Of a stretch of 64,000 bases of DNA, positions 13,085 to 31,408 are shown piece after piece. Source of the DNA: Candidatus Tectimicrobiota bacterium (GTDB lineage Bacteria > JACPUC01). The DNA lies in contig JACPUC010000008.1 in NCBI GenBank assembly GCA_016192455.1, forward strand, positions 124,001-188,000. Direction: 5' to 3'. The notes under the pieces are model-generated. The model did no database searches. It was not told the DNA's origin and was given only the letters and a program-made list of their open reading frames with translations. How positions within the stretch are numbered: the first letter of the stretch is position 1; each line of letters begins with the position of its first letter. A program made the translations under genes and the position numbers.

Positions 13085-13756
13085 ATGCTGAGTTGGCTCC
13101 CTGAGAATATCGCCTCGTACGGCGACAAGATCGACTCGCTCATGTACCTCGTGTACTACATCACGGGGACGGCCTTCGTGGTCACCGAGCTGGCTCTGAT
13201 CATCTTCCTCATCCTCTACCGGAGGAAACCGGGCCGACCGGCCGCCTACATCACCGGGAACCGCGCCAGGCAGGCGCTCTGGACCCTCGTCCCCCTGGCC
13301 GTCATCCTGGCGATCGACCTCTCCCTCGACTTCAAGGGGACGCCAGTGTGGAACGAGGTCAAGGCGGCGATCCCGCCGAGCAACGTCTTGGTTCAGGTGC
13401 AGGCCAAGCAGTTCAATTGGGAGGTCCACTACCCGGGCCCCGATGGCAAGCTCGGCACGGCTGATGACCTCGTCATGGACAACCAGCTCCATGTGCCGGT
13501 CAACCAGGTGGTGAAGGTCCGCCTCAAGTCGCAGGATGTCATCCACAGCCTCTTCCTGCCAAACCTGCGCTTCAAGCAGGATGTCCTCCCTGGGCGCGAG
13601 ATCGACGGCTGGTTCAAGGCCACCAAGACCGGCACCTACCCGATGCCCTGCGCGGAGCTCTGCGGCTTCGGACATTCCGGCATGTACGGCCAGATCACGG
13701 TCCACAGCGCCGAGGACTACCAAGCCTGGGTTCGGCAGCAGTGGCCCTCCTCGTAG
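13085..13756 (+). CDS. coxB: Cytochrome c oxidase subunit II
   Basis: Two TM helices, DVIHS, CuA motif CAELCGFGHSGM. Confidence 0.95.
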   Translation: MLSWLPENIASYGDKIDSLMYLVYYITGTAFVVTELALIIFLILYRRKPGRPAAYITGNRARQALWTLVPLAVILAIDLSLDFKGTPVWNEVKAAIPPSNVLVQVQAKQFNWEVHYPGPDGKLGTADDLVMDNQLHVPVNQVVKVRLKSQDVIHSLFLPNLRFKQDVLPGREIDGWFKATKTGTYPMPCAELCGFGHSGMYGQITVHSAEDYQAWVRQQWPSS

Positions 13757-13831
13757 CCGCTGGCAGGGCCGAGCCGCGGACGCCACCGTGAACCGCCACA
13801 GGTTGGTGCGATTCCAGAGAGAGGTTCCCCG

Positions 13832-15622
13832 ATGAACGAAACCGCCGCCGTTGCGCACGCCACGCATGAATCCCCTGGATTCGTGCGGACCTACCTCTTC
13901 TCCACCGATCACAAGATGATCGCCAAGCAGTTCCTCTGGCTCGGCTTGATCATGATGCTGCTGGGCGGGCTGCTGGCCCTCATGGTGCGCTGGGAACTCG
14001 CCTGGCCCGAAACCCAGCTTCCTCTCATGAACCTCATCTCCGAGAAGACCTGGGAGGCCCTCAACGAATCCGGCTCCTGGATCGCCCGCATGATCCCCAA
14101 TGGCTTTATCAGCCCGGAATCCTACAACTCGCTGTTCACCATGCACGCCACGATCATGGTCTTCCTCGTGGTCATGCCCATTCTCGTCGGCACCTTCGGC
14201 AATTTCCTCATCCCGCTGCAGATCGGCGCGCCGGACATGGCCTTTCCGGTCCTCAACATGCTGTCGTTCTGGACCACGGCGCTGGGTGGCCTGGTGATGC
14301 TCGCCGGCTTCTTCGTCCCGGGCGGACACGCCGCCGGCGGCTGGACCGCCTATGCCCCCCTCTCGGCCCAGGCGATCTACACCGGCGTCAACTGGGGCCA
14401 GCACCTCTGGCTGATCAGCCTCTTCATCCTGGGCGTCGGCTCGCTCATGGGCTCGATCAACTACATCACCACCGTCATCAACATGCGGGCCCGCGGCATG
14501 ACCTGGTTCCGCATGCCGTTGACCATCTGGTCGTTGTTCATCACCGCCGTCCTCCTGCTCTTCGCGCTTCCCGTGCTGCAGGCGGCGGCCGTCCTGCTGC
14601 TCTTTGACCGCACCCTGGGAACGAGTTTCTACCTCCCCGCCGGCGGCGGCGAGCCGCTGCTCTGGCAGCACCTCTTCTGGTTCTTCGGGCACCCCGAAGT
14701 CTACGTCCTCATCCTGCCCGCCATGGGGATTGTCTGCGACATCCTGCCCGTTTTCTCCCGCAAGCCGATCTTCGGCTACAAGGCCATGGCCGTGGCGATG
14801 ATCTCGATCGCCTTCCTCGGCTTCATCGTCTGGGGCCACCACATGTTCATCAGCGGCATGAACCCGAGCCTAGCGGTGGGCTTCTCGATCACCACCATCC
14901 TCATCTCGGTGCCCGCCGCCCTCATCACCATGAACTGGATCGCCACCCTCTTCCGCGCTTCGATCCGCTTCACCACCCCGATGCTGTTCGCCCTCGGGGT
15001 GGTCTCGATGTTCATCATCGGCGGCCTGTCGGGCATCTTCCTGGGACTGGCGCCGACCGATATCTTCCTCCACGACACCTACTTCGTCGTAGCCCACTTC
15101 CACTATATCGTCTTCGGGTTCAGCATCCTCGGCATCTTCGCCGGCATCTATTTCTGGTTCCCGAAGATGTTCGGCCGCAAGCTGAACGAAACGCTGGGGA
15201 AGATTCACTTCCTCGCCACCTTCATCACCTTCAACCTGGTCTTCTTTCCGATGCACATGCTGGGCATCGGCGGCCACATGCGCCGCATCTACAACCCGCT
15301 GCAGTACCCCTTCCTGGAGCCGCTGCAGCCGATGAACGTCTTCATCACCGTCAGCGCCTTCCTCCTCGGGGCATCGCAGATTCTCTTCATGATCAACTTC
15401 TTCTGGGGCCTGGCCGGGAAGAAGACGTGGGAGCAGAACCCCTGGGAGGCGAATACCCTGGAGTGGACGGCCGCGCCGCCGCGGCCGCCGCATGGGAACT
15501 TCCTCACGCCGCCGATCGTGCATCACGGTCCTTATGTCTACAGCCTGCCTGGGAGTACGCAGGACTGGGCGCCGCAGAACGAGGAGCTCCCAGGCAAGCT
15601 TGCCAGGGCCGCCGCCGGCTAG
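13832..15622 (+). CDS. coxA: Cytochrome c oxidase subunit I (A1-type GHPEVY)
   Basis: STDHK, FTMHATIM, GAPDMAFP, FGHPEVY, WGHHM, HDTYFVVAHFHY and MRRIY. Confidence 0.96.
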   Translation: MNETAAVAHATHESPGFVRTYLFSTDHKMIAKQFLWLGLIMMLLGGLLALMVRWELAWPETQLPLMNLISEKTWEALNESGSWIARMIPNGFISPESYNSLFTMHATIMVFLVVMPILVGTFGNFLIPLQIGAPDMAFPVLNMLSFWTTALGGLVMLAGFFVPGGHAAGGWTAYAPLSAQAIYTGVNWGQHLWLISLFILGVGSLMGSINYITTVINMRARGMTWFRMPLTIWSLFITAVLLLFALPVLQAAAVLLLFDRTLGTSFYLPAGGGEPLLWQHLFWFFGHPEVYVLILPAMGIVCDILPVFSRKPIFGYKAMAVAMISIAFLGFIVWGHHMFISGMNPSLAVGFSITTILISVPAALITMNWIATLFRASIRFTTPMLFALGVVSMFIIGGLSGIFLGLAPTDIFLHDTYFVVAHFHYIVFGFSILGIFAGIYFWFPKMFGRKLNETLGKIHFLATFITFNLVFFPMHMLGIGGHMRRIYNPLQYPFLEPLQPMNVFITVSAFLLGASQILFMINFFWGLAGKKTWEQNPWEANTLEWTAAPPRPPHGNFLTPPIVHHGPYVYSLPGSTQDWAPQNEELPGKLARAAAG

Positions 15623-15759: not shown

Positions 15760-16794
15760 ATGCCGGCAGGTTTCCCGGCCACACGCGAGCATCAGCCTGA
15801 CGCCGCCGGGGCGGCCGCCTCCCGCGCGCTGCACCACTACACCATCGCCACGGCCGCCGCCACGCTCTTCCTCATCTTCGTGGGGGGGCTGGTCACCAGC
15901 ACGGGGTCGGGGCTGGCAGTGCCGGACTGGCCTCTCTCCTTCGGGCGCCTCTTCCCGCCCATGGTCGGCGGCGTCTTCTACGAGCACGGGCACCGCATGG
16001 TGGCGGCCTCGGTCGGCATTCTCACCGTCATCCTGGCGATCTGGGTCTGGCAGCGGGAGCCGCGACCGTGGGTCCGCCGCCTCGCCGCCGCAAGCCTGGC
16101 GGCGATCATCGTGCAGGGGTTGCTCGGCGGGCTCACCGTGCTGCTGCGGCTGCCCACGGCGGTCTCGGTGCTGCATGCCAGCCTGGCGCAGTTCTTCTTC
16201 GGCCTCGTGGTGACGCTGGCGGTCTGCACGGGTCCCTGGTGGCGGCGCCTTGAGCAGCACGGCGCAGCCGTGGTGACGGAGGCGGCGGGCCCGCGCGGCT
16301 CCGCCGGCATGCTCTTCCTCGGCAGCCTGCTCACCACGCTCCTCATCTACGCCCAGATCATTCTTGGGGCGGTAATGCGACACCTCGGCGCCGGGCTGGC
16401 GATTCCAGACTTCCCCCTGGCGTTCGGCCGCTTGGTGCCCCCCCTCGCCTTCCCGCCGGTCATCATCCATTACCTGCATCGGCTCGGCGCGCTCGCCGTC
16501 ACGCTCGCCGTCATCTACCTGGTGACGCGCGTGCGCGCCCGCAGCGGTCCCCACGATGGCCTGCGGGGAACGGCCTGGATGCTCCTCGGGATACTCTTCG
16601 CGCAGCTTGCCCTGGGCGCGGCGACGATCTGGAGCCATCGTGCCGTGCCTCCCACCACGCTGCACGTTGCGGGAGGCGCCGCACTTCTGGCCGTCAGCCT
16701 CATCCTGACCCTGCGTTCGTTCCGCGTCTGGCGAGCCGCCGCCGGGCGCTTCGCCGCCACGCATGGCCTCATCTCGGAGCAGGCGCCGGCATGA
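15760..16794 (+). CDS. ctaA: Heme A synthase (COX15/CtaA family)
   Basis: GGLVTSTGSGLAVPDWP, EHGHRM, LHASLAQ, HYLHRLGA and TLHVAGG. Confidence 0.9.
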   Translation: MPAGFPATREHQPDAAGAAASRALHHYTIATAAATLFLIFVGGLVTSTGSGLAVPDWPLSFGRLFPPMVGGVFYEHGHRMVAASVGILTVILAIWVWQREPRPWVRRLAAASLAAIIVQGLLGGLTVLLRLPTAVSVLHASLAQFFFGLVVTLAVCTGPWWRRLEQHGAAVVTEAAGPRGSAGMLFLGSLLTTLLIYAQIILGAVMRHLGAGLAIPDFPLAFGRLVPPLAFPPVIIHYLHRLGALAVTLAVIYLVTRVRARSGPHDGLRGTAWMLLGILFAQLALGAATIWSHRAVPPTTLHVAGGAALLAVSLILTLRSFRVWRAAAGRFAATHGLISEQAPA

Positions 16795-17696
16795 TGATCC
16801 AATCGCAGACCTTCTCTTTGGAGCGGGAGACCATGCGGCAACGCGTGGCGGACTACCTGACGCTCACCAAGCCGCGCGTGGTGCCCATGGTGCTGCTGGC
16901 CACGGCGATCGGCTACTACCTCGGCGTTGGCGCCGAGGCGAGCTGGTGGCCGCTGCTGCATACGCTCATCGCCACCGCCCTCGCCGCCGGGGGCACGATG
17001 GCACTGAACCAGTACCTGGAGCGCGATCTCGACGCCCTCATGCAGCGCACCTGCCGACGCCCCCTCCCCGATGGGCGCCTGCAGCCGCGGGCGGCTCTCA
17101 TCTTCGGCACCCTCCTCATCTCGGCGGGGCTGCTCCACCAAGCCGCCGCGGTGAGCCTGCTGAGCGCCTCGGCGACTGCCACCACGGTCGCCGGCTACCT
17201 CTTCGCCTACACGCCGCTGAAGTCGCGGACACCGTGGTGCAGCATCCCGGGCGCCCTCGCCGGCGCGCTGCCGCCGGCAACCGGCTGGATCGCCGCGCGG
17301 GGAACCATCAACGTCGAGACGGCGGTCCTCGTGGCCCTCCTCTTCGTGTGGCAGTTGCCGCACTCCCTGGCCATCGCCTGGCTGTACCGAGAAGACTACG
17401 CGCGGGCCGGCTTCCGATTGCTGCCAGTGGTGCAGCCCGATGGTCGCAGCACGGCGCTCCAGGTGGCGCTCAACAGCGTCGCCCTCCTCGCCGCGGGCCT
17501 CCTTCCCAGCCTCGTGGGGATGACCGGCAGCACCTCCTTCTTCGTTGCTCTCGGTCTCGGCGCGGCCTTTCTGGCCTGCTGCCTGCACTTGGCGCTGCGC
17601 CTCTCGAACGCCGCGGCGCAGCGCGTGGTCCTCGCCTCGCTCCTCTACCTGCCGGTGCAGTTCGCCATCATGGCCTGGGATAAGGTGCCGTGGTGA
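16791..17696 (+). CDS. ctaB: Protoheme IX farnesyltransferase (heme O synthase)
   Basis: LTKPR, NQYLERDLDALM.RT..RPLP.G, YTPLK, WQLPH and DYARAG. Confidence 0.95.
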   Translation: MMIQSQTFSLERETMRQRVADYLTLTKPRVVPMVLLATAIGYYLGVGAEASWWPLLHTLIATALAAGGTMALNQYLERDLDALMQRTCRRPLPDGRLQPRAALIFGTLLISAGLLHQAAAVSLLSASATATTVAGYLFAYTPLKSRTPWCSIPGALAGALPPATGWIAARGTINVETAVLVALLFVWQLPHSLAIAWLYREDYARAGFRLLPVVQPDGRSTALQVALNSVALLAAGLLPSLVGMTGSTSFFVALGLGAAFLACCLHLALRLSNAAAQRVVLASLLYLPVQFAIMAWDKVPW

Positions 17697-17805: not shown

Positions 17806-18492
17806 GTGACCTCCCTGCTCAAAGATCAGCCGCCGAGGGCGGCGCCGGCGCAGCCCCTGCCGGGCGCTCCGCCACCCCCCGGACGGCGACCAGGCTGGGG
17901 AGATGACGAGGGAGGGCCGCGGCGCGACGACTCGCCGATGCCAGGCATGGCAACCGCGCAGCTCGGCATGCTGATGTTCCTCGCCGCGGAGGGGATGCTC
18001 TTCGCCGGGTTCATCGGCGCGTTCCTCGTCTTTCGCTTCGGCAACGCAAGCTGGCCGCCGCCCATGCAACCGCGCCTGCCGGTGGCGGTGACCGGCGTCA
18101 ATACCGCAATCTTGTTGCTGAGCGGCTACACGATGATCCGTGCCCTGCGCGCGGCGGCGCGCCGCAAGCCCGCGCAGCTCCGCGCCTCCATCATCGCCAC
18201 GGCGCTGCTCGGCATCCTTTTCCTCGCCGTCCAGGGGTATGAGTGGGTGCGGCTGGTGAGCTTCGGCCTCACCATGGCCTCCGGCATCTATGGCGCCACG
18301 TTCTATACCCTCATCGGCACGCATGGGCTGCATGTGGTGGGCGCCGTCACCTGGCTGCTCATCATCTCCCTCCTCCTGGCGAGGAGCCGCTTCCGCCCGG
18401 CGCGGCGGCTGCCGCTCGAACTCTGCGGCATGTACTGGTTCTTCGTCGTGGGGGTCTGGCCGCTGCTCTACGTCCTCGTTTACCTCCACTAA
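17806..18492 (+). CDS. Cytochrome c oxidase subunit III family protein (first copy)
   Basis: FLAAEGMLF, NTAILLLSG, FY.LIG.HGLHV and YWFFV; strong GGAGGAGG RBS. Confidence 0.9.
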   Translation: MTSLLKDQPPRAAPAQPLPGAPPPPGRRPGWGDDEGGPRRDDSPMPGMATAQLGMLMFLAAEGMLFAGFIGAFLVFRFGNASWPPPMQPRLPVAVTGVNTAILLLSGYTMIRALRAAARRKPAQLRASIIATALLGILFLAVQGYEWVRLVSFGLTMASGIYGATFYTLIGTHGLHVVGAVTWLLIISLLLARSRFRPARRLPLELCGMYWFFVVGVWPLLYVLVYLH

Positions 18493-18669: not shown

Positions 18670-19110
18670 ATGGTCATCGGGCGGTCTCGCAGGAGTTATC
18701 TAGCAGTCCTAGCGCACTCCCTTTCGCCACGCCTCGGGAGCGTGGCGGGAGCGATTATCCGGACTCTCGTGGGCGGAGTCGGATTGGCCGGGGCGACGGT
18801 GGCCGGCGGGGCGCTCCTCCTGGCACCGGCGGAGGCTTTCGCCTGCGCGGTCTGTTGGATCGCCGATGATCCTTTGGGCAACGGCTTGTTCTGGAGCACC
18901 CTCTTCCTTGCCGGCGCGCCGTTCATGCTCGGTGGCGGCATGATCGGCCTGGTGCTCTACTTGCAGCGGCGCCAGGCCAGGTCGCAGTCGCCAACGAGGG
19001 AAGCGGCGCAACCATACCTGGCGACGAGCCTCCACCCACGGATGCGCGGCGAGCCGATCTGGTCCTTGAGAGACCGACTCGTCCAAACTGCTCGGGAGGA
19101 ACGGAATTGA
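18670..19110 (+). CDS. Small membrane protein with CxxC in the cox operon (start uncertain)
   Basis: Signal-like segment ending AEAFA, then CAVC and one TM helix; stop overlaps the TTG start of the next gene. Confidence 0.6.
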   Translation: MVIGRSRRSYLAVLAHSLSPRLGSVAGAIIRTLVGGVGLAGATVAGGALLLAPAEAFACAVCWIADDPLGNGLFWSTLFLAGAPFMLGGGMIGLVLYLQRRQARSQSPTREAAQPYLATSLHPRMRGEPIWSLRDRLVQTAREERN

Positions 19111-19721
19111 GTGACGTAGCATCGCACAGCGTCGCCTACGCGGCGGAATCTCCACTGACCCCGGAGAGCTGGGGGAAGCTCGGCATGTGGGTGTTCCTCG
19201 CCGGCGACGCCATGATGTTCGGCGCCTTGCTCGCCGGTTACGGCGCGCTCCGGTATGGCAGCCTCACCTGGCCCGTCCCGGCGCACGTTTTGGGCATCTC
19301 CCTCACCGCCTTCATGACGTTCCTGCTCATTTGCAGCAGCGTGACGATGGTCAAGGCCCTGGAAGCCATCCGCATGGGCAAACCTGAGCGGATGCGCAAT
19401 TTCCTCCTCCTGACGATGCTGGGCGGGGCGATCTTCCTGGGTCTGCAGGCGTATGAGTGGAACCACCTCATCCACACAGGGCTCGGGTTCAGCGGCAACC
19501 CATGGGGCGGCGCGCTCTTCGGCACCACGTTCTTCATCATCACCGGGTTCCATGGCATGCACGTCACGGGCGGGGTGATCTACCTCGGCATCGTCATGCT
19601 GCGCGGCGTCGGGGGCCACTACAGCGCCGCACGCTATCAACCCGTCGAGGTGGCTGGGCTTTACTGGCATTTCGTCGATCTCGTCTGGATCATGGTCTTC
19701 ACCTTCATCTATCTCTTGTAA
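19107..19721 (+). CDS. Cytochrome c oxidase subunit III family protein (second copy)
   Basis: KLGMWVFLAGDAMMF, TGFHGMHV and GLYWHFVDLVW. Confidence 0.92.
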   Translation: MSDVASHSVAYAAESPLTPESWGKLGMWVFLAGDAMMFGALLAGYGALRYGSLTWPVPAHVLGISLTAFMTFLLICSSVTMVKALEAIRMGKPERMRNFLLLTMLGGAIFLGLQAYEWNHLIHTGLGFSGNPWGGALFGTTFFIITGFHGMHVTGGVIYLGIVMLRGVGGHYSAARYQPVEVAGLYWHFVDLVWIMVFTFIYLL

Positions 19722-19807: not shown

Positions 19808-20143
19808 ATGGCGACGCACTCCAAGGCAGAGCGGCATCATCCGAACTACATGGCCATCTTCTGGTGGCTCTTGGGGCTTACCATCGGGGAGGTCATCGCC
19901 GTCCTCCTTCCCCTCCCCCGTTCGATGGTGGTCGTGCTCCTTGTCGGCTTCGCCCTCTCGAAGGCGACGCTCGTGGCGATGTACTTCATGCACCTGCGCT
20001 TCGAGCGCGTGCCCCTCGGTGTGATCGCGGTCACGCCGTTGATCCTCTGCGTCTTCCTGGTCCTGATGCTGCTTCCCGACCTCTCCACCGAGACGCAGCC
20101 GTCCAACGTCCCGACCCAGAAGGTCATCATTCAGCAGAAGTAG
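19808..20143 (+). CDS. Cytochrome c oxidase subunit IV family protein
   Basis: Y..IF..L..LT..EV and KATLVAMYFMHLRFE; GAGG RBS. Confidence 0.88.
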   Translation: MATHSKAERHHPNYMAIFWWLLGLTIGEVIAVLLPLPRSMVVVLLVGFALSKATLVAMYFMHLRFERVPLGVIAVTPLILCVFLVLMLLPDLSTETQPSNVPTQKVIIQQK

Positions 20144-20154
20144 GGTCCATCGCC

Positions 20155-21072
20155 ATGTCCCACCAGGAACGCAGCGAGGCACTCCCCACTCCCAGGCAGA
20201 CTCCGGACGGGCAGCGGAGCTGGCAGGAGAAGGTCCTGCTTCCCCTGGTGGTTCTCATCCTCGTGCTGCTGCTCGGCGTCGGCGCCTGGAGGATGTTCAG
20301 CAAGGCCGCAACGCTGCGCGCCGCGCAGCTCGCCCGAGACACCTCCCTGCCGGCGTATGGCAGGGTCCCCCCTTTCATGCTCCTGGAACGCACGGGACAG
20401 CCGCTCGATCTGGCTGACCTCATCGGCAAGGTGTGGATCGCCGACTTCATCTACACCCGCTGCGAGCTCGAGTGCCCGCTCGCCAGCGCGCGCCTGGCGC
20501 AGCTCCAGGATCGTTTCCACGAGGAGGCCGATCTGCGGCTCGTCTCCTTCAGCGTCGACCCGGAGTACGACACGCCTGCCGTTCTGCTGGCCTATGCGCG
20601 GCGCTTCCACGCCGATCCCCAACGCTGGCTCTTCCTGACCGGTGAGAAGGAGGCGATCCGGACCCTCATCCGCGACGGGTTCAAGCTCAGCTTAGGGGAA
20701 AGGGACGATGACCGCGCCGGGGGAGAAAGGACCTCCGTGAACGGCGCCGTCCGGCCCGGCTTCAGCGCAGCGCGGCGTGGCGCCGAGGGGACCTCGAGGA
20801 TGGCAGCGCAGCCTCGCGTCGGGCGCGGGTGGGAGCGCGCCTGGCGGAAGCTGGGCGAGGTGCGGAGCGCCTTGTCACCGGCGGTCGCCTGGGCCCACGA
20901 GGGACATGGACCCTCCATCAAGCACACCGCTCCCACCGCGCAGGTGACCCATAGCAGCCGCTTCGTGCTTGTTGACCGACAGGCCAGGATACGCGGCTAC
21001 TACCACAGTAACGACCCGGATGCGCTGCGCCGCCTGATCGACGACGCCGAGCGGCTCCTGCGGCAACGGTAA
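20155..21072 (+). CDS. SCO family copper chaperone with a long internal insertion
   Basis: TM anchor, FIYTRCELECP (CxxxC), SVDPEYDTP and HSSRFVLVD. Confidence 0.9.
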   Translation: MSHQERSEALPTPRQTPDGQRSWQEKVLLPLVVLILVLLLGVGAWRMFSKAATLRAAQLARDTSLPAYGRVPPFMLLERTGQPLDLADLIGKVWIADFIYTRCELECPLASARLAQLQDRFHEEADLRLVSFSVDPEYDTPAVLLAYARRFHADPQRWLFLTGEKEAIRTLIRDGFKLSLGERDDDRAGGERTSVNGAVRPGFSAARRGAEGTSRMAAQPRVGRGWERAWRKLGEVRSALSPAVAWAHEGHGPSIKHTAPTAQVTHSSRFVLVDRQARIRGYYHSNDPDALRRLIDDAERLLRQR

Positions 21073-23354: not shown

Positions 23355-24136
23355 AGCATCACTTCTTGACCGTGATGACCCTCTGGCGGCGCGAGATAGT
23401 GCGCTTCGCGCGCCAACGCAGCCGGGTCACCGGAGCCTTTGCGCAGCCGCTGGTGTTCTGGATTCTGCTCGGCGGTGGTCTGCGCGCCTCCTTCCGGCCC
23501 CCCGGCCTGCCGGACGGCATGAGTTCGGTGGAGTACTTCTACCCCGGCATCATCGCCCTGATGCTGCTCTTCACGGCGATCTTCTCGACCATCTCCGTGG
23601 TCGAGGACCGCCAGGCCGGCTTTCTGCAAGGCGTGCTCGTCGCTCCGGTGAGCCGCGCGGCCGTGGTCCTAGGGCAGGCCCTCGGCTCGACCACCCTCGC
23701 CATGCTCCAGGGACTGCTCTTCCTCGTCCTGGCGCCGATCGCCGGCGTGCCGCTGACGCCCCTCTCGGCGCTGGCGGCGCTGGCGGTCATGCTCATCATG
23801 GCGTTCAGCCTCAGCAACCTCGGCCTGACGATCGCCTGGCGGATGACCTCCACGCAGGGCTTCCACGCCATCATGAACTTGCTCCTGCTGCCCCTCTGGC
23901 TGCTCTCAGGCGCTTTCTTTCCCGCCACTGGTGCGCCCTGGTGGATCGCCTGGATCATGACGGTCGATCCGCTCACTTACGGGATTACGCTTTTGCGGCG
24001 GGCGTTCTACCTTGCCAATCCCGTGGCGGCAGGTCAGCTTCCGCCGGCCGCGATCTCCCTTGGCATTACCCTCCTCTTCTGCTGCGTCGCCGCCGCGGCC
24101 GCGGTCGGCTCGGCGCGGCGCAGCACGGTCCGCTGA
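23351..24136 (+). CDS. ABC-2 type permease
   Basis: Six TM helices, DRQAGFL, SGAFFP and PLTY; GTGA overlap with the ATPase gene. Confidence 0.9.
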   Translation: MKHHFLTVMTLWRREIVRFARQRSRVTGAFAQPLVFWILLGGGLRASFRPPGLPDGMSSVEYFYPGIIALMLLFTAIFSTISVVEDRQAGFLQGVLVAPVSRAAVVLGQALGSTTLAMLQGLLFLVLAPIAGVPLTPLSALAALAVMLIMAFSLSNLGLTIAWRMTSTQGFHAIMNLLLLPLWLLSGAFFPATGAPWWIAWIMTVDPLTYGITLLRRAFYLANPVAAGQLPPAAISLGITLLFCCVAAAAAVGSARRSTVR

Positions 24137-24155
24137 GAGGAGCCGCGGCCGTACC

Positions 24156-25373
24156 TCAGGCTGCCCCGGCATGGAGGTCGGCGTAGAGACGCGCGTAGGC
24201 CGCCACCCCGGCCTCGAGGTCGAAGTGCTTCGCGGCCGCGCCGACACAGCGCTGCGAAATGTCCGGCTCCTCCGTCAGGGCGAGGAGGCGCGCCAGACCG
24301 TGGCGCATCGCCTCGGGCGTGAACTCGCGGATCGCCACCCCGACCCGCTCCCCTTCCAAAATCTCTTCCACATCCCCCACCCCCGCGTTGCTGAGGCAGG
24401 GAATGCCGCAGCTCAGGAACTCGCCGAGCACCGTGGGCGCCGAGGCGAGCTTGGAGAAGACCGGTTTGATGAAGAAGACGCCGGCATGCATGCGCCCCAT
24501 CTCGCGGGGGACGTCGGGGTAGTCCACGGCCTTCACCTCCACCTGCGAGGAGGGCGCCGCGTGCGCCGCGAGGCGGTCGCGGATAAATTCGTGGGCATCA
24601 CGGTTGAGGATGAGGAAGCGCGCTCGCGGCTGCATCGAGAGGAGGAGCGCGAAGCAGGCCGCGGTGGCCTCGAACTGGTACCAGAGACCCACCGCGCCGA
24701 CATGCCCAAGCGTGAAGGGCTCGCCGGCCGCGCCCGGCGGCCGCCGGGGCTCTGCGCAGGTTTGAGGTTTGAAGAGGCCGCGGTTCGTGCACGTTGGAAT
24801 CACCGCGAACCGAGGCGCGCGAACCTCCAGGCAGGGAAACCGACGCATCGCCTCAACGCCCGCATGGGTGAGGGAGACGACCGCATCGGCATGCGTGAGG
24901 AAGCGGCGCTCCCACCACTTGGCCAGGCGATACAGCCTGCCCCCCTTCGGCCACAGCCCTCCCTCCACGCGCTCGTCAGCCCAGAAGCCGCGCATATCGA
25001 AGAGGAAGCGCGCGCCGAAAAGTTTTTTCATCGCCAGGGCGAGCAGCGCGGCCACGTAGCTGCGGGCATGCACGACGCGGATGCGGTAGAGCAGCACGAT
25101 GGCGCCGCAGACGAGCAGGCCGCGCAGCAGATCATAGCTCGTGGCGATGGGCGAGATTCGTTTATGGTAGCGGAGCGGAATCCAGCGAACGCCAGCCTTG
25201 CGAACCTGCTCCTCGATGGCGCGGCGCTTCGTGGTCTGCCGCCAGTCCGCGCGCTTCTCGAAGGTCAGCAGGGTAAGCGGGTAGCGCGCCGCCAGCCTAG
25301 TGACGTACTGGAGGACCTGCGACTGGCCCAACGGCTCCAGCAGGCCGTCATAGCTGATGTAGAGGATCGCCAC
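24156..25373 (-). CDS. Glycosyltransferase family 4
   Basis: YDGLLEPLGQSQV, HARSY, FDMRGFWADE and E.L.CG.P. Confidence 0.88.
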   Translation of the reverse strand: MAILYISYDGLLEPLGQSQVLQYVTRLAARYPLTLLTFEKRADWRQTTKRRAIEEQVRKAGVRWIPLRYHKRISPIATSYDLLRGLLVCGAIVLLYRIRVVHARSYVAALLALAMKKLFGARFLFDMRGFWADERVEGGLWPKGGRLYRLAKWWERRFLTHADAVVSLTHAGVEAMRRFPCLEVRAPRFAVIPTCTNRGLFKPQTCAEPRRPPGAAGEPFTLGHVGAVGLWYQFEATAACFALLLSMQPRARFLILNRDAHEFIRDRLAAHAAPSSQVEVKAVDYPDVPREMGRMHAGVFFIKPVFSKLASAPTVLGEFLSCGIPCLSNAGVGDVEEILEGERVGVAIREFTPEAMRHGLARLLALTEEPDISQRCVGAAAKHFDLEAGVAAYARLYADLHAGAA

Positions 25374-25427
25374 CTCGCCACCACCTCCCGGGTTGCCGGC
25401 CGCCGCGGAGAGAGGAGCGGCACGCCC

Positions 25428-26891
25428 CTACGGCAGGCGCCGCAGGCCAGGCAGCTCCCGGAAGCCGAGCACGACCCCCGCCGCCTTATAGCTGGAGGTC
25501 TTCAGGATGAAGCTCTCGTTGATGAGGAGCTCCTTGCCGTTGAAGGTGTAGGTTCCTTCCGAATTGACCGGCGCATGGGCCTCCACGTGCAGCAGGGCTC
25601 TGACATCCCGGCGTTCAGGCGCCCGTTCAGGGAACATGGTGCCCGGCGGCAGCGCCGAAGGCTGGCGCGAGATGACGCGCACCACGCGCGCCCGCAAGGG
25701 ATCCTTGTCGCTGTAGCCAATATCGCCGGCCCCGATGACCTCCGCCAAGGAGGGGATGAGGTTCTCGAAGTTAACGTCCACCTCCAGCACCTTAACCCTG
25801 CCGGTGAGCAGCGCCTGCATGCTCGCCTCCACCTCATACTTGGAGGTCGTGAAGGTGAAGGGGACTCCCTCCTCGAGCAGCGTACCGCGGTAGACCGGCG
25901 GCGTGCCGAGATCGAGGGCAAGGCGCATGCGCACGAGGAGGTCGCGCCGGACATCGCCGGAGGCAACCTCGCGCCCCCGTCCGGACGGCAGCCATGGCTT
26001 GGTCCCGCTTGGCCGCTCCCCCACGATGTCGAGCACCTCGGCGACGACGGTGCCGCGCTCCTCCCGCTGCGCGTCGCCCACGGCGATTTGCGCCACCAGG
26101 CCAGCCGGCAGGTGACTCCACACCGTCAGGAACTCGGCGGCAAGACCGCCCTGAACCGGCGGAAAGCCGAGGACCTTGCCGCTGATCGCGTGTCGGGGCA
26201 TCTGGAGGGTGAGGGGGGCGTTCACCTCCAGCGGCTTGTCGCCGAACAGGAGCCGCCCGTCCCGGTAGGACGCGAGCAGGTGCAGCCTCAGAGTCACGTC
26301 GAAGTGCTCGGGCACGGCGCGCTCGAAGAACTGCTCTTTGCCGAGACGAATCCGTTCGACGGCCGGCCGGAACCTCCCCAGACGCTGGAGCCGCGCCACT
26401 TCCTGGCCATCGCGATCCTGAAAGACCTGGCCCGGCGTGAGGAAGGCGCGATCTTCCGCGCGCAGCATTTGGAATCTGACAAAGGCATCAACCTCGATAT
26501 CAGGCTTGACGAGGCGCGCGAACTTCATGGCCGACTTGGCGGTGAGCCCATTCGGATTCATGACGAGAACGTCATGCTCCCCAGGAGGAAGCTCGGCAGC
26601 CGGCAACTCCACGGAGATGGCTCGCCCATCGGCGGGCGTTTTCGGCGTCAAGGTCAGCGGTCCAACGCGAACCTGGAGGGGTGGGTAAAAGTTCTCTCCC
26701 CGAATGGTGAGGGTGATCACATCGTTGGAGGATGAACGCGCCGGGTGAATCGAGACGATCTTGGGCGTCTCCACGTTCAGGACGCGGAAGGCGACGACCC
26801 CAAGGGGAATGAGTGCAGCCAGGATCACCAGCACGCAGGCGTCCAGCAGGTTCACCTTGCCGAGAAGTCTGCCGTGTCGATCAACGATCAT
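25428..26891 (-). CDS. DUF4330-like protein with an IPT/TIG domain and three internal repeats
   Basis: D..GRL.GKVNLLD N-terminus plus TM helix; IPT-like segment (GENF...V.NPNG); three repeated beta-rich units. Confidence 0.7.
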   Translation of the reverse strand: MIVDRHGRLLGKVNLLDACVLVILAALIPLGVVAFRVLNVETPKIVSIHPARSSSNDVITLTIRGENFYPPLQVRVGPLTLTPKTPADGRAISVELPAAELPPGEHDVLVMNPNGLTAKSAMKFARLVKPDIEVDAFVRFQMLRAEDRAFLTPGQVFQDRDGQEVARLQRLGRFRPAVERIRLGKEQFFERAVPEHFDVTLRLHLLASYRDGRLLFGDKPLEVNAPLTLQMPRHAISGKVLGFPPVQGGLAAEFLTVWSHLPAGLVAQIAVGDAQREERGTVVAEVLDIVGERPSGTKPWLPSGRGREVASGDVRRDLLVRMRLALDLGTPPVYRGTLLEEGVPFTFTTSKYEVEASMQALLTGRVKVLEVDVNFENLIPSLAEVIGAGDIGYSDKDPLRARVVRVISRQPSALPPGTMFPERAPERRDVRALLHVEAHAPVNSEGTYTFNGKELLINESFILKTSSYKAAGVVLGFRELPGLRRLP

Positions 26892-27063
26892 GTCGAGGGT
26901 AACATCCTTGCCTGCCGATCAGGCAGGCCTGTTCGCTGGCGGGCATCCCACCCGGCCCAGCGGTCGAGCGTGCCTGGCGCGTCGAGGGCGCCCATCCCGA
27001 GGTGACGCAGCACGCGAAACTTCACCTCAGTTCCCGCGCGTCAGGGCGTCGGCCCTGTCATCT

Positions 27064-28470
27064 TCATCCTGCCGAGTCCTCATCCCTTCCCAGACCGCAG
27101 AGGAGGCGGGTGATCCCGGCAGCTCCAAAGAGGAGCACGAAGGGCGTGATCATGTCGCGATGGCGGAACGCAGTGCCGACATTGCCGCTGGCCAGCGCAA
27201 TAACGGAGATGAAGGAGAAGAGAACGAGCGGAAAACCCCACGCGCCAGCCGCGCCGATCCGCACCACACACATCAACCCCAGGCCTGCAAGGGGGAGGAG
27301 CAGATACCAGAAGAGATTCTGCGGCATGACCGCCTTCTCGCGCAGGCTCTCCGCATTCCAGACGAACGGTTCCAACAAGAAATGCCACCAGGCCCGTGCG
27401 AAAGCTTTGAGCACCTCGAACGCGGAGACATCAAGCGCCCCAAGATCACTGGTGTAGTACCTCGGATCGTCGTAGAGATGGTAGATCTGACCTCCCGTAC
27501 TCACCACGCCACGGTGGTAGTTGATAAGATTCTTCACTTCACCGCCAAGCCGTTGCGTCGTCGCCTGGCGAAGCGGCCCAACGAACAAAAGAAGCAGCGC
27601 CAACCCCAGCAGGATGGCGACCTTTACCTTCAGCCTCATTCCGAGTTCGAAGAAGGAGGCAAGGAGGAGCGCCGCCGCGAGAACCGCCACGAGCCCTGTC
27701 CTCAAGGTGTGCGTCAAGAGAACGAGGAGTCCGCCGATCACCACCACCCTGGCGACGCGAAAGTTTCGACAGACTCTCGTGTACAAGAGCATGATAACGC
27801 CCACCAAGAAGATGCGCAGGGCCTCCTTCAGATTCGTGATCGACCACATCACCAACGACGGCCAGAGCAGCACGAGAAAGAACGTGAAGCGTGCAACCAA
27901 TCTGCCGAAGTACTGCCTCGCAATCGCGTAGAAAACGACGCCCGTCGTGCTTGCCAGCATGGCGTTGAAGACCTTACTGGCTATTGGACTATAGCCGAAC
28001 AAATAGTAGAGAATCCCCAGCAGCTTCATGTTGATCGAATATCCGTAGTAGTCTCGATGCATCATGTAGCCAATGGACGAACCATGAACAAGCGGTTGCG
28101 ACTCACCCGAAGCATACTCCGCATACAATCTGCCCCACAAAGTGATGAACTCCTGATCGCCGATACCCAGCACATCTTCACTCACGGAAGTTGACAGCTC
28201 ATAGTACGAAAAGAGGAGAATTAGCGTCGTGCGGGCCGCCATACTTACAAGCAGAAGGATGAGCACGAAGCTTCGCTCGTCCTCCTCGATGAAGTAAGCA
28301 ACCATTGTCACAAGGACGAGAGTGGCGGCAAAAACGAGACTCGTTCCGGCCGGCGAGATGAAGAGTGCAATTCCAGTGGCGGCGCCAAGACAGAAGAGCC
28401 ATGCGAAGGTCCTGCCGGAGCGGGGAAGAACTCCTCGAACAAGTCTCTCTCCGTGCAGCGCCTGATTCAT
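27064..28470 (-). CDS. Polytopic membrane protein, GT-C/Wzy-like
   Basis: Many TM helices, PSLVMWS..LKE and N.GTAFRHR C-terminal motif; GGAGG RBS. Confidence 0.7.
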   Translation of the reverse strand: MNQALHGERLVRGVLPRSGRTFAWLFCLGAATGIALFISPAGTSLVFAATLVLVTMVAYFIEEDERSFVLILLLVSMAARTTLILLFSYYELSTSVSEDVLGIGDQEFITLWGRLYAEYASGESQPLVHGSSIGYMMHRDYYGYSINMKLLGILYYLFGYSPIASKVFNAMLASTTGVVFYAIARQYFGRLVARFTFFLVLLWPSLVMWSITNLKEALRIFLVGVIMLLYTRVCRNFRVARVVVIGGLLVLLTHTLRTGLVAVLAAALLLASFFELGMRLKVKVAILLGLALLLLFVGPLRQATTQRLGGEVKNLINYHRGVVSTGGQIYHLYDDPRYYTSDLGALDVSAFEVLKAFARAWWHFLLEPFVWNAESLREKAVMPQNLFWYLLLPLAGLGLMCVVRIGAAGAWGFPLVLFSFISVIALASGNVGTAFRHRDMITPFVLLFGAAGITRLLCGLGRDEDSAG

Positions 28471-28648: not shown

Positions 28649-29926
28649 TCACGGGACGGCCTTAGAGCGGTCGCGCGGCAACACCGCCGGCGCGCGCCGC
28701 ACGTAGCGATAGCACGTCACCATGCCGAGGGCTGAAAACATCAAGACCTGCGGCATGATGGGGATTTGATAGCGCGACGTGGAGAAGAGGAAGGTATGCA
28801 CCAACGCCGTATAGGCAAACGGAACGGCAAGGATCAGCCAGGTTCGCCAGGCGCCGCGTCCAGCGACAAGGCCGACGCCCGCCAGGGCAAGGAGGAAGAG
28901 GTTGATCCCAAGCAGCATCCCTTTGATCAGCAGGCGCAGGTAGTGGCCGTCACGCCAGGTCTGCGTGAAGCTCCTCTCCAGCCCCGCCACCATATTGCTG
29001 TGGCTGCCGATCCAGAATCGGAAGAAGCGCTTCGCCGACATCAGCAGGTACGTGCCCGGATAGTCGCGCAGGTTGCGCAGCCCGGCGACGGCGAGGGCGC
29101 GATCGCGCTCCCAGGGGGAGAGGACTTGCGTCCTCTTCATGGTCTCATGCTCGCGCCACTCCTGCCAATCTTCGGGATAGGTGGAGAGCCAGAGCGTCTG
29201 CCCGAAATCCGTCGCCAGGTAGAAGCGGCGAAACTCCGCGTAGTTGCGCGCCAACCCAAGACCCAGGACGATGAAGAAGGCAAGGAACAGCGGCCCGGTG
29301 CGCCGCAGCGTCAGCCGCAGGCCGCGCCAGCAGAGCGCCAGGGCCGCGGCGAGGAGGAACGGCAGCGGCAGGAACTCCGCCCGCGTCAGCGTGGCGACGG
29401 CGAGGACCGCACCCGCCGCCACGGCTGCGGACGCACGCACCTGCTGCGGGAACGCCACGCAGAGCATCAGCGCCCAGGCGAGGAGAAACGTCAGGAAGGA
29501 CTCGCTGAGGAACTTCCCGCTGTAGAAGAGGAACGGCGGGTAGAACGCCGCCAGGATGGCGGCCGCCCCGGCGGCGGAGCGCCCGAAGAGCGGCTCCGCG
29601 GTTCTCCAGACGAAGAGCGGCAGAAGTCCGAGAAGGACCGCCTGCCCAAGCCGGATTGCCAGGAGGGGGCGTCCCGGCGAGATCGACATGAGGAGCGCAA
29701 GAAAGGCGGGGTACCCCACGCCGCGCAAGGTGGTGCCAAGGGTGCCGTCGTGCTGGAGGTTGCGGGCGAGTGCGAGATAGTCCCCCTCATCAGCGCTGGA
29801 GGCTTGCTGGAGCACCAGCGTCGCATACAGCACTTTCAGCCCGATGCTCAGGAGGCAGAGGAGAAGAATGAGCCTCAGCCAACTCCGCGAGCTGCTCCTC
29901 TCCTTGACAGCCGCTTCAGAAACCAC
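28649..29926 (-). CDS. ArnT/PMT-like (GT-C fold) glycosyltransferase
   Basis: DE..Y..LA.NL, R..GYP.FLA, SE, LTR, RNY and RY motifs. Confidence 0.8.
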   Translation of the reverse strand: MVSEAAVKERSSSRSWLRLILLLCLLSIGLKVLYATLVLQQASSADEGDYLALARNLQHDGTLGTTLRGVGYPAFLALLMSISPGRPLLAIRLGQAVLLGLLPLFVWRTAEPLFGRSAAGAAAILAAFYPPFLFYSGKFLSESFLTFLLAWALMLCVAFPQQVRASAAVAAGAVLAVATLTRAEFLPLPFLLAAALALCWRGLRLTLRRTGPLFLAFFIVLGLGLARNYAEFRRFYLATDFGQTLWLSTYPEDWQEWREHETMKRTQVLSPWERDRALAVAGLRNLRDYPGTYLLMSAKRFFRFWIGSHSNMVAGLERSFTQTWRDGHYLRLLIKGMLLGINLFLLALAGVGLVAGRGAWRTWLILAVPFAYTALVHTFLFSTSRYQIPIMPQVLMFSALGMVTCYRYVRRAPAVLPRDRSKAVP

Positions 29927-30022
29927 CGCCCTGCTCCACCCCGGCAGCCGGACCCCGGGACGCGTTTCTTTTCACCCACGCCGGCAAAAAGCGGCTCCCC
30001 CCGCAGCGGCCGCGCGCCATCG

Positions 30023-31363: not shown

Positions 31364-31408
31364 CTCAGCCGCGTGCAAGCAGCGGCCCGGCCTTGCCACG
31401 GCGCCCCC

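What the first reader, a model, noticed from the sequence alone, without database searches (positions are those of the whole stretch)
13085..15622. A1-type heme-copper oxidase that appears to have lost its whole K proton channel
Seen in sequence: subunit I keeps all six His ligands, the cross-linking Tyr (GHPEVY), the D-channel (FGN, PD, LN, Glu of PEVY) and the RR pair. Helix VIII reads ISVPAALITMNW where A-family enzymes read IAVPT/S-G/A-V/I-K-xFxW. The Lys equivalent to R. sphaeroides K362 is therefore Ile (ATC 14924-14926) and the T359 equivalent is Ala (14915-14917). The S299 equivalent is Cys (14735-14737). In subunit II the channel-entry Glu (E101 equivalent, normally LExxWT) is Gln (RQALWT, 13271-13273). 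Established: K-channel Lys mutants of aa3 oxidases almost abolish O2 turnover while keeping peroxide-driven activity. Inference: four coordinated substitutions across two genes in an otherwise complete operon point to a selected variant. It could be a D-channel-only oxidase, use another proton route, or act on a different substrate such as peroxide or NO.
Basis: partly seen in the sequence, partly recalled or inferred. Interest (0 to 1): 0.85.

Follow-up and report, generated by a model that had tools for sequence, protein, structure and literature searches.

The report
Cytochrome oxidase without its K channel
A groundwater bacterium carries an intact, well-conserved aa3-type cytochrome c oxidase operon in which the residues of one of the two textbook proton channels have been swapped for non-protonatable ones, a pattern that recurs in several other bacterial lineages and is already in print for one group.

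Summary
CoxA (13832-15622) has Ile365, Ala362 and Cys302 where 200 of 200 Lys-bearing relatives have Lys and Ser and 199 of 200 have Ser/Thr. CoxB (13085-13756) has Gln63 where 105 of 105 have Glu. Haem and CuB ligands, the cross-link Tyr, the D channel and CuA are intact.

It is neither an error nor decay. A second sample's contigs are identical over all four codons. Of 165 positions at least 95% conserved in Lys-bearing relatives (142 CoxA, 23 CoxB), the window departs at eight, and four are the K-channel residues. Branch length and codon use are ordinary, and the operon includes CtaA, CtaB and SCO1.

It is not unique. I found a 40-47-row Lys-less clade, a second of 80 loci (Dormibacterota, Actinomycetota) with Lys to Ile and Glu to Gln in 68 of 77, and scattered single losses. 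In one Longimicrobiales chromosome a Lys-less enzyme is the only haem-copper oxidase found. A 2020 preprint describes Lys to Ile plus subunit II Glu loss in iron-oxidiser oxidases.

The window's enzyme is a lone lineage, at most 69% identical to anything, with the gene order of Lys-bearing relatives. Most likely it is a working O2 reductase fed by the D channel. This is untested.

The parts
13085..13756 (+). coxB, subunit II (223 aa), CuA-bearing, no cytochrome c domain. Gln63 (CAG 13271-13273) stands at the K-channel entry Glu.
   Evidence: Pfam COX2 1.4e-15. NCBIfam TIGR02866 scores 148.0 against a cut-off of 147.7. The window departs at 1 of 23 positions that are at least 95% conserved in 105 partners of Lys-bearing CoxA, and that one is E63Q. 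Codon checked.
13832..15622 (+). coxA, subunit I (596 aa), A1-type (GHPEVY 286-291).
   Evidence: Pfam COX1 1.3e-150. PDB hits down to 7.3e-135. Ligands and D channel present. The window departs at 7 of 142 conserved positions.
14735..14737 (+). Cys302 codon (TGC) at the position of the lower K-channel Ser (S299 in R. sphaeroides numbering, which is recalled; S291 in P. denitrificans numbering per PMC3084760).
   Evidence: Ser in 200 of 200 Lys-bearing relatives.
14915..14926 (+). Helix VIII codons Ala362-Ala363-Leu364-Ile365. Ala362 stands at the channel Thr/Ser and Ile365 at the channel Lys.
15760..16794 (+). ctaA, haem A synthase.
   Evidence: Pfam COX15-CtaA 4.8e-38. Same position in the operon as in Lys-bearing loci.
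16791..17696 (+). ctaB, haem O synthase (UbiA family).
   Evidence: Pfam UbiA 3.2e-50. Synteny.
17806..18492 (+). First subunit III-like gene (228 aa).
   Evidence: Pfam COX3 3.4e-26.
18670..19110 (+). orf146, a predicted membrane protein with a CxxC. It has no family and no counterpart in other loci, so it may not be a real gene.
   Evidence: No Pfam or NCBIfam hit. No tblastn hit in any fetched locus.
19107..19721 (+). Second subunit III-like gene (204 aa).
   Evidence: Pfam COX3 2.6e-19.
19808..20143 (+). Subunit IV-like gene. The start is taken at the ATG of MATHSK, which follows a GGAGAGG site.
   Evidence: Pfam COX4_pro 6.5e-12. Start worked out.
20155..21072 (+). SCO1/SenC copper chaperone. 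The start at MSHQER is inferred.
   Evidence: Pfam SCO1-SenC 1.5e-23. Start.

Best explanation
The window encodes a complete, native, selectively maintained aa3-type (A-family, A1, CuA) cytochrome c oxidase. All four canonical K-channel side chains have been replaced by groups that cannot carry a proton: Lys to Ile, Thr/Ser to Ala and Ser to Cys in subunit I, and the entry Glu to Gln in subunit II. Everything else that defines a proton-pumping A1 oxidase is untouched. Shown: the substitutions, their specificity, the intactness of the operon, and the recurrence of the same loss in other lineages. Inferred: the enzyme still reduces O2. The protons that canonical enzymes take up through the K channel in the reductive half-cycle (O to E to R; PMC7196763, passages) would reach the active site another way. 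The most likely route is the intact D channel with Glu289. Less likely is an unrecognised water-filled route. By gene order and overall similarity the operon belongs with the Lys-bearing NC10/Binatia-type oxidases. I therefore read the loss as probably independent of the large Lys-less clade, though a stem position to that clade is not excluded.
For: Specificity: 7 of 142 (CoxA) and 1 of 23 (CoxB) conserved positions differ, and 4 of these 8 are the K-channel residues. Lys-bearing relatives have a median of 0 departures, and the large Lys-less clade a median of 15.5.

Not decaying: the end branch is 0.42-0.49 and was never flagged as long. GC3 is 0.91 against 0.86-0.91 for neighbouring genes, and SD-like sites precede both genes. 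All nine operon frames are open.

Not an error: run X2 contigs are identical. Runs X5 and X6, from two other studies, hold pieces 94-98% identical by my arithmetic on the table of pieces, with 0 gaps. Among the lineage-specific differences that were printed, 11 codons changed synonymously, including Val360 and Leu364 next to Ile365. Four changed non-synonymously.

No replacement residue: the only window-specific protonatable residue in a membrane segment is Cys302 itself.

Recurrence: 105 of 105 Lys-bearing CoxA have Glu in CoxB. Twenty distinct Lys-less loci have E6, Q5, H3, L2, T1, I1, V1, K1. All 26 Lys-less rows keep Glu289, against 111 of 138 Lys-bearing rows.

Working oxidases: of five genomes with a Lys-less enzyme, it is the only haem-copper oxidase found in one (G043). 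It is the only A-type in two more (G041, G044).

Affinity to Lys-bearing relatives: the gene order CoxB-CoxA-CtaA-CtaB-Cox3-Cox3-Cox4(-SCO1) matches six Lys-bearing loci, whereas Lys-less loci lack CtaA and CtaB there. CoxA is at most 69% and CoxB 59.6% identical to Lys-bearing relatives, against at most 61% (full-length CoxA) and 51.7% (CoxB) to Lys-less ones.
Against: No activity, expression or structure data exist. No RNA run holds the stretch, so that search gave no information either way.

The passages of PMC7196763 that I read report only 15% turnover for a yeast Thr to Lys channel mutant. So a D-channel-only cycle needs compensations that I cannot see in the sequence.

The genome also has a cbb3-type oxidase and a bd-like gene. 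The organism therefore does not depend on this enzyme.

The protein has no relative above 69% identity in 5.8 billion proteins. Purifying selection on the four codons themselves could not be measured. The table of differences printed 40 rows and left 680 more unshown, so I could not read those codons in the ~95% relatives.

The tree position is unresolved. With helix VIII masked, a tree holding the window together with the Lys-less clade scored 18.96 log-likelihood units better than the quick free tree (p-AU 0.74). In the careful tree, monophyly of the Lys-bearing rows excluding the window has only 56/41 support.
Confidence: 0.6

Rival explanations
1. The enzyme works as an O2 reductase, but the K-channel protons are replaced by protons from another route. 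This could be a new water-lined path opened by the small residues (Ala362, Ala363, Cys302). It could also be uptake from the periplasmic side, which would lower the charge translocated per O2.
For: No substitute protonatable side chain is visible, so some non-side-chain route is needed if the D channel cannot serve the reductive phase. The window shares some helix VIII-IX states with the Lys-less clade (Ile356, Ser359, Ala371, Gly405, Ala407). Other Lys-less lineages did install new acidic residues. One has Glu one position before the old Lys in 14 of 26 rows. Another has Glu at the Asn142 position. This shows that channels can be rebuilt.
Against: The window itself has none of those new acidic residues. 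Gly405 and Ala407 lie, by helix topology (inference), at the outer end of helix IX and not in the channel. No coordinates were available to look for cavities.
Confidence: 0.22
2. The enzyme has shifted substrate. It would act mainly as a peroxidase or NO reductase, or as a slow, low-turnover O2 scavenger or sensor, rather than as a respiratory oxidase.
For: The genome has other oxidases.
Against: The cross-link Tyr, three CuB His and Glu289 are all kept. The haem-copper NO reductase families lack the Tyr (PMC3084760 and 10.1101/2021.10.15.464467, passages). No NirK scored over the cut-off (best 20 bits). Only weak partial Cytochrom_D1 repeats of at most 34 bits were found in an 88% complete genome. 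Lys-less enzymes are the sole A-type or sole haem-copper oxidase in 3 of 5 genomes checked. The haem A and copper assembly genes are kept in the operon.
Confidence: 0.1
3. The operon is a redundant paralogue on its way to decay, made dispensable by the cbb3 oxidase. The four changes would be the first hits.
For: It is a singleton lineage with no relative above 69% identity. A second oxidase is present.
Against: 157 of 165 conserved positions are kept, and the eight changes include all four channel residues. There are no stops or frameshifts in nine genes. Branch length and GC3 are ordinary. Relatives about 95% identical in other studies have no indels, and most printed changes are synonymous.
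Confidence: 0.05
4. The substitutions are sequencing, assembly or binning artefacts.
For: The source is a metagenome-assembled genome (88% complete, 2.3% contamination).
Against: Independent contigs from another sample are identical over all four codons. The four changes lie in two genes and need at least five base changes. The contig is 334 kb.
Confidence: 0.01

Closest known systems
Canonical A1-type aa3 cytochrome c oxidases (solved structures such as 1m56_A, 1ar1_A, 7rh6_R)
   Same: Same fold family (E down to 7.3e-135). Six His ligands, cross-link Tyr in GHPEVY, D-channel residues and Glu, Arg pair, CuA subunit II, subunits III and IV, and haem A synthesis genes.
   Different: Lacks all four K-channel residues that the classification paper lists as defining the A-type K channel (PMC3084760, Table 2 passage). 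Carries a window-specific insertion of about 15 residues in the loop between helices I and II.
Lys-bearing oxidases of NC10 (Methylomirabilota), Binatia, Poribacteria and Gemmatimonadota MAGs (P0002-P0120; L004, L025-L031)
   Same: These are the nearest relatives: CoxA up to 69% and CoxB up to 59.6% identical. The gene order CoxB-CoxA-CtaA-CtaB-Cox3-Cox3-Cox4(-SCO1) is the same, and so is the acidic residue after the channel Ser.
   Different: All 119 listed have IA[VIL]PSAIK[TV]FNWL and Ser302, and all their CoxB have Glu. The window has ISVPAALITMNWI, Cys302 and Gln63.
A-family oxidases of acidophilic Fe2+ oxidisers and non-acidophilic relatives, said to lack the K channel (Degli Esposti et al., bioRxiv 10.1101/2020.03.01.968255, section 7 read; PMC8239418, passages)
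   Same: The Lys is replaced by hydrophobic residues 'such as Ile', the subunit II entry Glu is substituted non-conservatively, and the D channel is described as essentially conserved.
   Different: Those are described as A2-type by the classifier and as the deepest branch of family A. The window's enzyme has the A1 Glu and sits among ordinary Lys-bearing sequences. No named acidophile sequence was in my sets, so kinship was not tested directly.
Large Lys-less clade found here (P0121-P0172 except P0148 and P0163; L005, L047, L105, L110, and the ISVPIAEM subgroup)
   Same: GHPEVY kept, Lys, Thr and Ser lost, subunit II Glu no longer constrained. The helix VIII start FSITTILISVP is shared.
   Different: The crown of the clade excludes the window (support 100; 100/100). 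It has its own fixed residues that the window lacks: Glu200, Phe201, Phe204, Phe242, Ser245-Val-Gly-Pro248 and Ala335. Its operon has no CtaA or CtaB after CoxA. Identity to the window is 45-61%, or 64% over one 331-residue fragment.
Lys-less clade of Dormibacterota and Solirubrobacterales/Thermoleophilia/Gaiellales (P0174, L203-L282)
   Same: The same pair of changes: Lys to Ile in 66 of 80, and subunit II Glu to Gln in 68 of 77 (R[LVI]QTTWI against the window's RQALWT).
   Different: Only 38% identical to the window. It keeps the channel Thr. It also changes the D-channel entrance (Asp135 to Arg/Asn/Gly, Asn142 to Glu), which the window does not.

Membership tests
Haem-copper oxidase superfamily, A family, type A1 | Six conserved His ligands (low-spin haem, high-spin haem, CuB) | tested here: met
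   His105, 287, 336, 337, 422 and 424 are present. Pfam COX1 scores 502.5 bits.
Haem-copper oxidase superfamily, A family, type A1 | Cross-linked Tyr in helix VI (Tyr-I) and the helix VI Glu of the D channel (GHPEVY) | tested here: met
   GHPEVY lies at 286-291.
Haem-copper oxidase superfamily, A family, type A1 | D-channel residues (Asp, three Asn, Ser; list in PMC3084760 Table 2) | tested here: met
   Asn124, Asp135, Asn142, Ser204 and Asn210 are present and match 130-138 of 138 Lys-bearing rows.
Haem-copper oxidase superfamily, A family, type A1 | K channel: Lys354, Thr351, Ser291, Tyr280 (P. denitrificans numbering, PMC3084760 Table 2), plus the subunit II entry Glu | tested here: not met
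   The window has Ile365, Ala362 and Cys302. Only the Tyr is kept. CoxB has Gln63.
Haem-copper oxidase superfamily, A family, type A1 | CuA-binding subunit II | tested here: met
   His154, Cys189, Glu191, Cys193, His197 and Met200 are among the 22 of 23 conserved positions kept. TIGR02866 scores 148.0 against a cut-off of 147.7.
NCBIfam TIGR02891 CtaD_CoxA (equivalog) | Score at or above the curated cut-off of 670.75 bits | tested here: not met
   The window scores 627.1 bits. The Lys-bearing relative P0012 (654.8) and the Lys-less P0133 (609.8) also fall below, so this reflects the whole group and not the K channel.
Large Lys-less clade (SVPFA/SVPIAE type) | Placement inside the clade, and its fixed residues (Glu200, Phe201, Phe204, Ser245-Pro248, Ala335) | tested here: not met
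   The window is excluded from the crown with support 100 and 100/100. It has the Lys-bearing state at 28 of 43 discriminating positions. A sister (stem) position is not rejected (p-AU 0.244 and 0.74).
K-channel-less COX of acidophilic iron oxidisers and relatives (bioRxiv 10.1101/2020.03.01.968255) | Lys replaced by a hydrophobic residue, and subunit II entry Glu replaced | tested here: met
   Ile365 and Gln63.
K-channel-less COX of acidophilic iron oxidisers and relatives (bioRxiv 10.1101/2020.03.01.968255) | Phylogenetic membership in that deep-branching, A2-classified group | not tested
   No named acidophile or Thioclava sequence was among the 240 loci fetched. The window has the A1 Glu. 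The supplementary trees were closed.
Haem-copper NO reductases (cNOR, qNOR, eNOR, sNOR, gNOR, nNOR) | Loss of the cross-link Tyr and an altered active site (passages of PMC3084760 and 10.1101/2021.10.15.464467) | tested here: not met
   Tyr291, the three CuB His and Glu289 are kept.

The most novel reading that the evidence does not exclude
The window's enzyme would be a natural D-channel-only A1 oxidase: a fully coupled, proton-pumping cytochrome c oxidase that runs its whole cycle without any K channel. It would have arisen independently of at least two large Lys-less clades. Because it differs from Lys-bearing relatives at so few other conserved positions (4 of 161), it would be the cleanest natural 'minimal pair' for asking what the K channel is for (proton wire or dielectric well) and which few changes make it dispensable.
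Probability: 0.35. Interest if true: 0.7.

Novelty: new member of a known kind. Interest (0 to 1): 0.45.

Why it matters
Textbooks and the standard classifier treat the K channel as a defining, essential part of A-family oxidases, and point mutants of its Lys are nearly dead. Natural enzymes that lack it and are otherwise intact exist in groundwater, soil and sponge-associated lineages. In one Longimicrobiales chromosome such an enzyme is the only haem-copper oxidase found. Either the D channel can feed the whole cycle or another route exists. The window's enzyme is useful because it is so close to Lys-bearing relatives apart from the channel. A handful of swaps between it and a 69% identical relative could test what makes the channel dispensable. 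For annotation, Lys-less A-type oxidases should not be scored as broken.

Tried and rejected
- **Close relatives:** all 40 genomes offered by the 'relatives' search were 'same domain' only, so no kin could be tested. Word searches of 5.8 billion proteins with helix VIII found nothing sharing PAALITMNW, at normal lengths or among shorter fragments.
- **Reads:** one search printed 40 rows of differences and left 680 more unshown, so the four codons could not be read in the ~95% relatives of runs X5 and X6.
- **Expression:** no RNA holder was listed.
- **Tree position:** four trees and two AU tests did not settle whether the window's loss is independent or shared with the large Lys-less clade. 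The careful tree's bootstrap had not settled (correlation 0.988).
- **NO reductase idea:** the NOR diversity preprint (10.1101/2021.10.15.464467, passages) concerns B-family-derived enzymes without the Tyr and does not apply. NirK and NirS searches in the genome were negative or weak.
- **Structure:** structure prediction, fold search, complex prediction and the protein atlas were not run. The tools return no coordinates, so alternative polar paths could not be traced, and fold membership was not in doubt.
- **dN/dS:** dN/dS against the nearest homologue was not attempted, because 69% protein identity means saturated synonymous sites.
- **Literature:** six searches found only the Degli Esposti preprint and paper on natural K-channel loss in family A. 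None mentioned the NC10/Binatia-type, Myxococcota/Gemmatimonadota or Dormibacterota clades by name. Subscription papers and supplements were not searchable. [quoted passage not shown]
Full report
**What is there.** On the + strand lies one operon:
- coxB (13085-13756, 223 aa, CuA)
- coxA (13832-15622, 596 aa)
- ctaA (15760-16794) and ctaB (16791-17696)
- a subunit III-like gene (17806-18492)
- an unassigned orf146 (18670-19110)
- a second subunit III-like gene (19107-19721)
- a subunit IV-like gene (about 19808-20143)
- SCO1/SenC (about 20155-21072)

All frames are open. SD-like sites precede coxB and coxA. Third-position GC is 0.91, against 0.86-0.91 for neighbouring genes.

**The observation.** HMMER against all solved structures aligns helix VIII without gaps. 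The window's 'ilisvpaalitmnw' lies against 'fliavptgikffnw' of the best chain (7rh6_R, E 7.3e-135). I compared 200 full-length relatives that have the Lys. All 200 have Lys at 365 and Ser at 302, and 199 have Ser or Thr at 362. All 105 CoxB partners of Lys-bearing CoxA have Glu where the window has Gln63. The haem and CuB His ligands, Tyr291, Glu289, the D-channel Asn and Asp residues, the Arg pair and the CuA ligands are present.

**Error or decay?** Neither.
- Contigs of another sample of the same study (run X2) match with no differences over pieces that cover all four codons.
- Runs from two other studies (X5, X6; all groundwater by their labels) hold pieces 94-98% identical, with no gaps.
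- Only 40 rows of differences were printed and 680 more were left unshown. Of the 20 printed letters specific to that lineage, 3 are intergenic. The rest fall in 11 synonymously changed codons and 4 non-synonymously changed ones. The synonymous ones include Val360 and Leu364 beside Ile365. I could not read the four key codons in those relatives.
- Of 142 CoxA positions at least 95% conserved in Lys-bearing relatives, the window differs at seven: S302C, S362A, K365I, F367M, G376A, S526G and G530K.
- Of 23 such CoxB positions it differs at one, E63Q.
- Four of the eight departures are the residues named in advance. My own hypergeometric arithmetic puts that at about 2e-6.
- Lys-bearing relatives have a median of 0 departures.
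- The window's end branch (0.42-0.49) was never flagged as long.

**Is there a substitute residue?** I looked for protonatable residues in the window where under 5% of Lys-bearing relatives have one. That search finds only three things. One is Cys302 itself. The second is Lys530 in the C-terminal tail, which is cytoplasmic by my reading of the topology. The third is residues in a window-specific loop insertion and the C-terminus. So the sequence shows a neutralised channel and no visible replacement.

**Is it unique?** No. The best 119 homologues (at most 69% identical; NC10, Binatia and others by their source names) all have the Lys. A word search restricted to helix VIII then found 54 further proteins, of which 52 lack it.

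- **Large Lys-less clade.** These proteins, with genomic loci, form a clade of 40-47 rows with support 100. Helix VIII reads SVPFA..VFAM or SVPIAEM. It occurs in MAGs labelled NC10, KSB1, Tectimicrobiota, Poribacteria, Binataceae, Myxococcota, Gemmatimonadota and Bdellovibrionota, and in a Puniceicoccaceae record not labelled as a MAG.
- **Second clade.** This comprises 80 of 80 fetched loci from Dormibacterota and Solirubrobacterales, Thermoleophilia and Gaiellales. It has Lys to Ile (66), Val (12) or Thr (2). The subunit II Glu is Gln in 68 of 77.
- **Single losses.** One sits beside a Lys-bearing Acidobacteriaceae sequence (L172 with L060, support 100). Others are L173 with P0148, L100 and L148.
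- **Subunit II.** Across loci with both genes, 105 of 105 Lys-bearing CoxA pair with Glu in CoxB. Twenty distinct Lys-less loci show E6, Q5, H3, L2, T1, I1, V1, K1. Constraint on the entry Glu therefore goes with the Lys, which is what one expects if the channel is truly abandoned.
- **Glu289.** All 26 Lys-less rows keep Glu289, against 111 of 138 Lys-bearing rows (one of the 26 rows is a stray frame that lacks the ligands).
- **Genome context.** I checked five genomes that hold a Lys-less enzyme. In one Longimicrobiales chromosome it is the only haem-copper oxidase found. In two more it is the only A-type, beside a cbb3 type.

**Where the window's enzyme belongs.** It is outside the crown of the large Lys-less clade, with support 100 in the quick trees and 100/100 in the careful tree.
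- At 43 positions that separate that clade from Lys-bearing relatives, it has the Lys-bearing state at 28, the Lys-less state at 12 (mostly residues 352-438) and neither at 3.
- Its CoxB is nearer to Lys-bearing CoxB (59.6%, 58.9%) than to Lys-less CoxB (51.7%, 44%).
- Its gene order, with CtaA and CtaB between CoxA and the subunit III genes, matches six Lys-bearing loci. Lys-less loci lack CtaA and CtaB there.
- With helix VIII and residues 300-304 masked, quick trees put it inside or next to the Lys-bearing group, with supports of 80-92.
- Against this, the careful tree leaves it in a polytomy.
- Holding it together with the Lys-less clade is not rejected (p-AU 0.244 unmasked). With masking, the constrained tree even scored 18.96 units better than the quick free tree (p-AU 0.74).

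I read the loss as probably independent, mainly because of gene order and CoxB. A stem position to the Lys-less clade remains possible.

**Organism and context.** The genome (4.46 Mb, 31 contigs, 88% complete) has one other haem-copper oxidase. By its motifs it is a cbb3-type, followed by a dihaem cytochrome c gene. It also has a bd-like gene scoring 65 bits. No NirK scored over the cut-off, and only weak Cytochrom_D1 repeats were found.

**What is in print.** The classification paper lists Lys, Thr, Ser and Tyr as the A-type K channel (PMC3084760, Table 2 passage). The K channel is held to carry substrate protons only in the two reductive steps, and the D channel the rest (PMC7196763, passages). 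Degli Esposti and colleagues (bioRxiv 10.1101/2020.03.01.968255, section 7 read whole) report on COX1 of acidophilic Fe2+ oxidisers and some non-acidophilic relatives. These have the Lys replaced by residues 'such as Ile' and the COX2 entry Glu substituted, with the D channel essentially kept. The authors call this a rare case. The journal version speaks of repeated K-channel loss in archaeal family A (PMC8239418, passages). Six full-text searches found no other account.

**Verdict.** The kind of enzyme, a natural A-family oxidase without a K channel and with the subunit II Glu also gone, is known. By my counts it is much more widespread than the one account suggests. The window adds a lone, probably independent lineage that is unusually close to Lys-bearing enzymes. 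Its mechanism, whether D channel only, another route or altered function, is inference and needs the bench.

Noticed in passing
P0121-P0172 (except P0148, P0163); L005, L047, L105, L110: The large Lys-less clade has its own fixed residues that Lys-bearing relatives lack. These are a Glu in helix V (window position 200, 100% of 47), Phe201 and Phe204 (Phe204 replaces a D-channel Ser), Phe242, Ser245-Val-Gly-Pro248 and Ala335. A buried conserved Glu next to a lost D-channel Ser suggests a rebuilt proton path.
   Followed up: partly
L095, L116-L123, L125, L127, L129, L130 (helix VIII ISVPIAEM...): A subgroup of the Lys-less clade carries a conserved Glu one residue before the old Lys position (14 of 26 Lys-less rows). 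By record labels it comprises Myxococcota, Gemmatimonadota and Bdellovibrionota. This may be an acidic replacement for the Lys. In the Longimicrobiales chromosome G043 this enzyme is the only haem-copper oxidase found.
   Followed up: partly
L203-L282 and P0174: The Lys-less clade of Dormibacterota and Solirubrobacterales, Thermoleophilia and Gaiellales also lacks the D-channel entrance Asp (Arg in 66, Asn in 10, Gly in 3 of 80). The sequences printed from it have Glu at the Asn142 position (IGARRMAFPRLEAL). Glu289 is kept in 80 of 80. Both canonical channel entrances are therefore altered.
   Followed up: partly
L172 (Terriglobales MAG), compared with L060: This looks like a recent single change. 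The Lys is Leu while both channel Ser residues are kept (ITVPSAVLTFAWL). The protein is sister to a Lys-bearing Acidobacteriaceae sequence with support 100. Its CoxB was not captured.
   Followed up: no
window 18670-19110 (+): orf146 lies between the two subunit III-like genes. It is a predicted membrane protein with a CAVC motif. It has no Pfam or NCBIfam family and no tblastn match in any of the fetched oxidase loci. It may be a lineage-specific small subunit or assembly factor, or a chance frame in GC-rich DNA.
   Followed up: partly
window 14027-14071 (CoxA residues about 66-80): An insertion in the loop between helices I and II (…LISEKTWEALNESGSW…) is gapped in 191-197 of 201 Lys-bearing relatives.
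   Followed up: no
L130 and L148: Records labelled Klebsiella pneumoniae MAG and Enterobacteriaceae MAG carry Lys-less oxidases. L130 groups with Myxococcota sequences and L148 sits on a long branch. These are probably mislabelled or contaminated bins.
   Followed up: no
window 24012-26735, 26761-28194, 28766-31639 (+): Three long open frames (907, 477 and 957 aa) downstream of an ABC transporter pair have no Pfam family. AT skew is strongly positive over 26-32 kb. They were not examined further, and in 65-70% GC DNA some may be chance frames.
   Followed up: no
G000 contig C1, 239629-243876 (L002): The genome's second haem-copper oxidase is cbb3-like (HHFIYSG). It is followed by one 283-aa gene with two CxxCH motifs, which looks like fused CcoO- and CcoP-like parts.
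   Followed up: no
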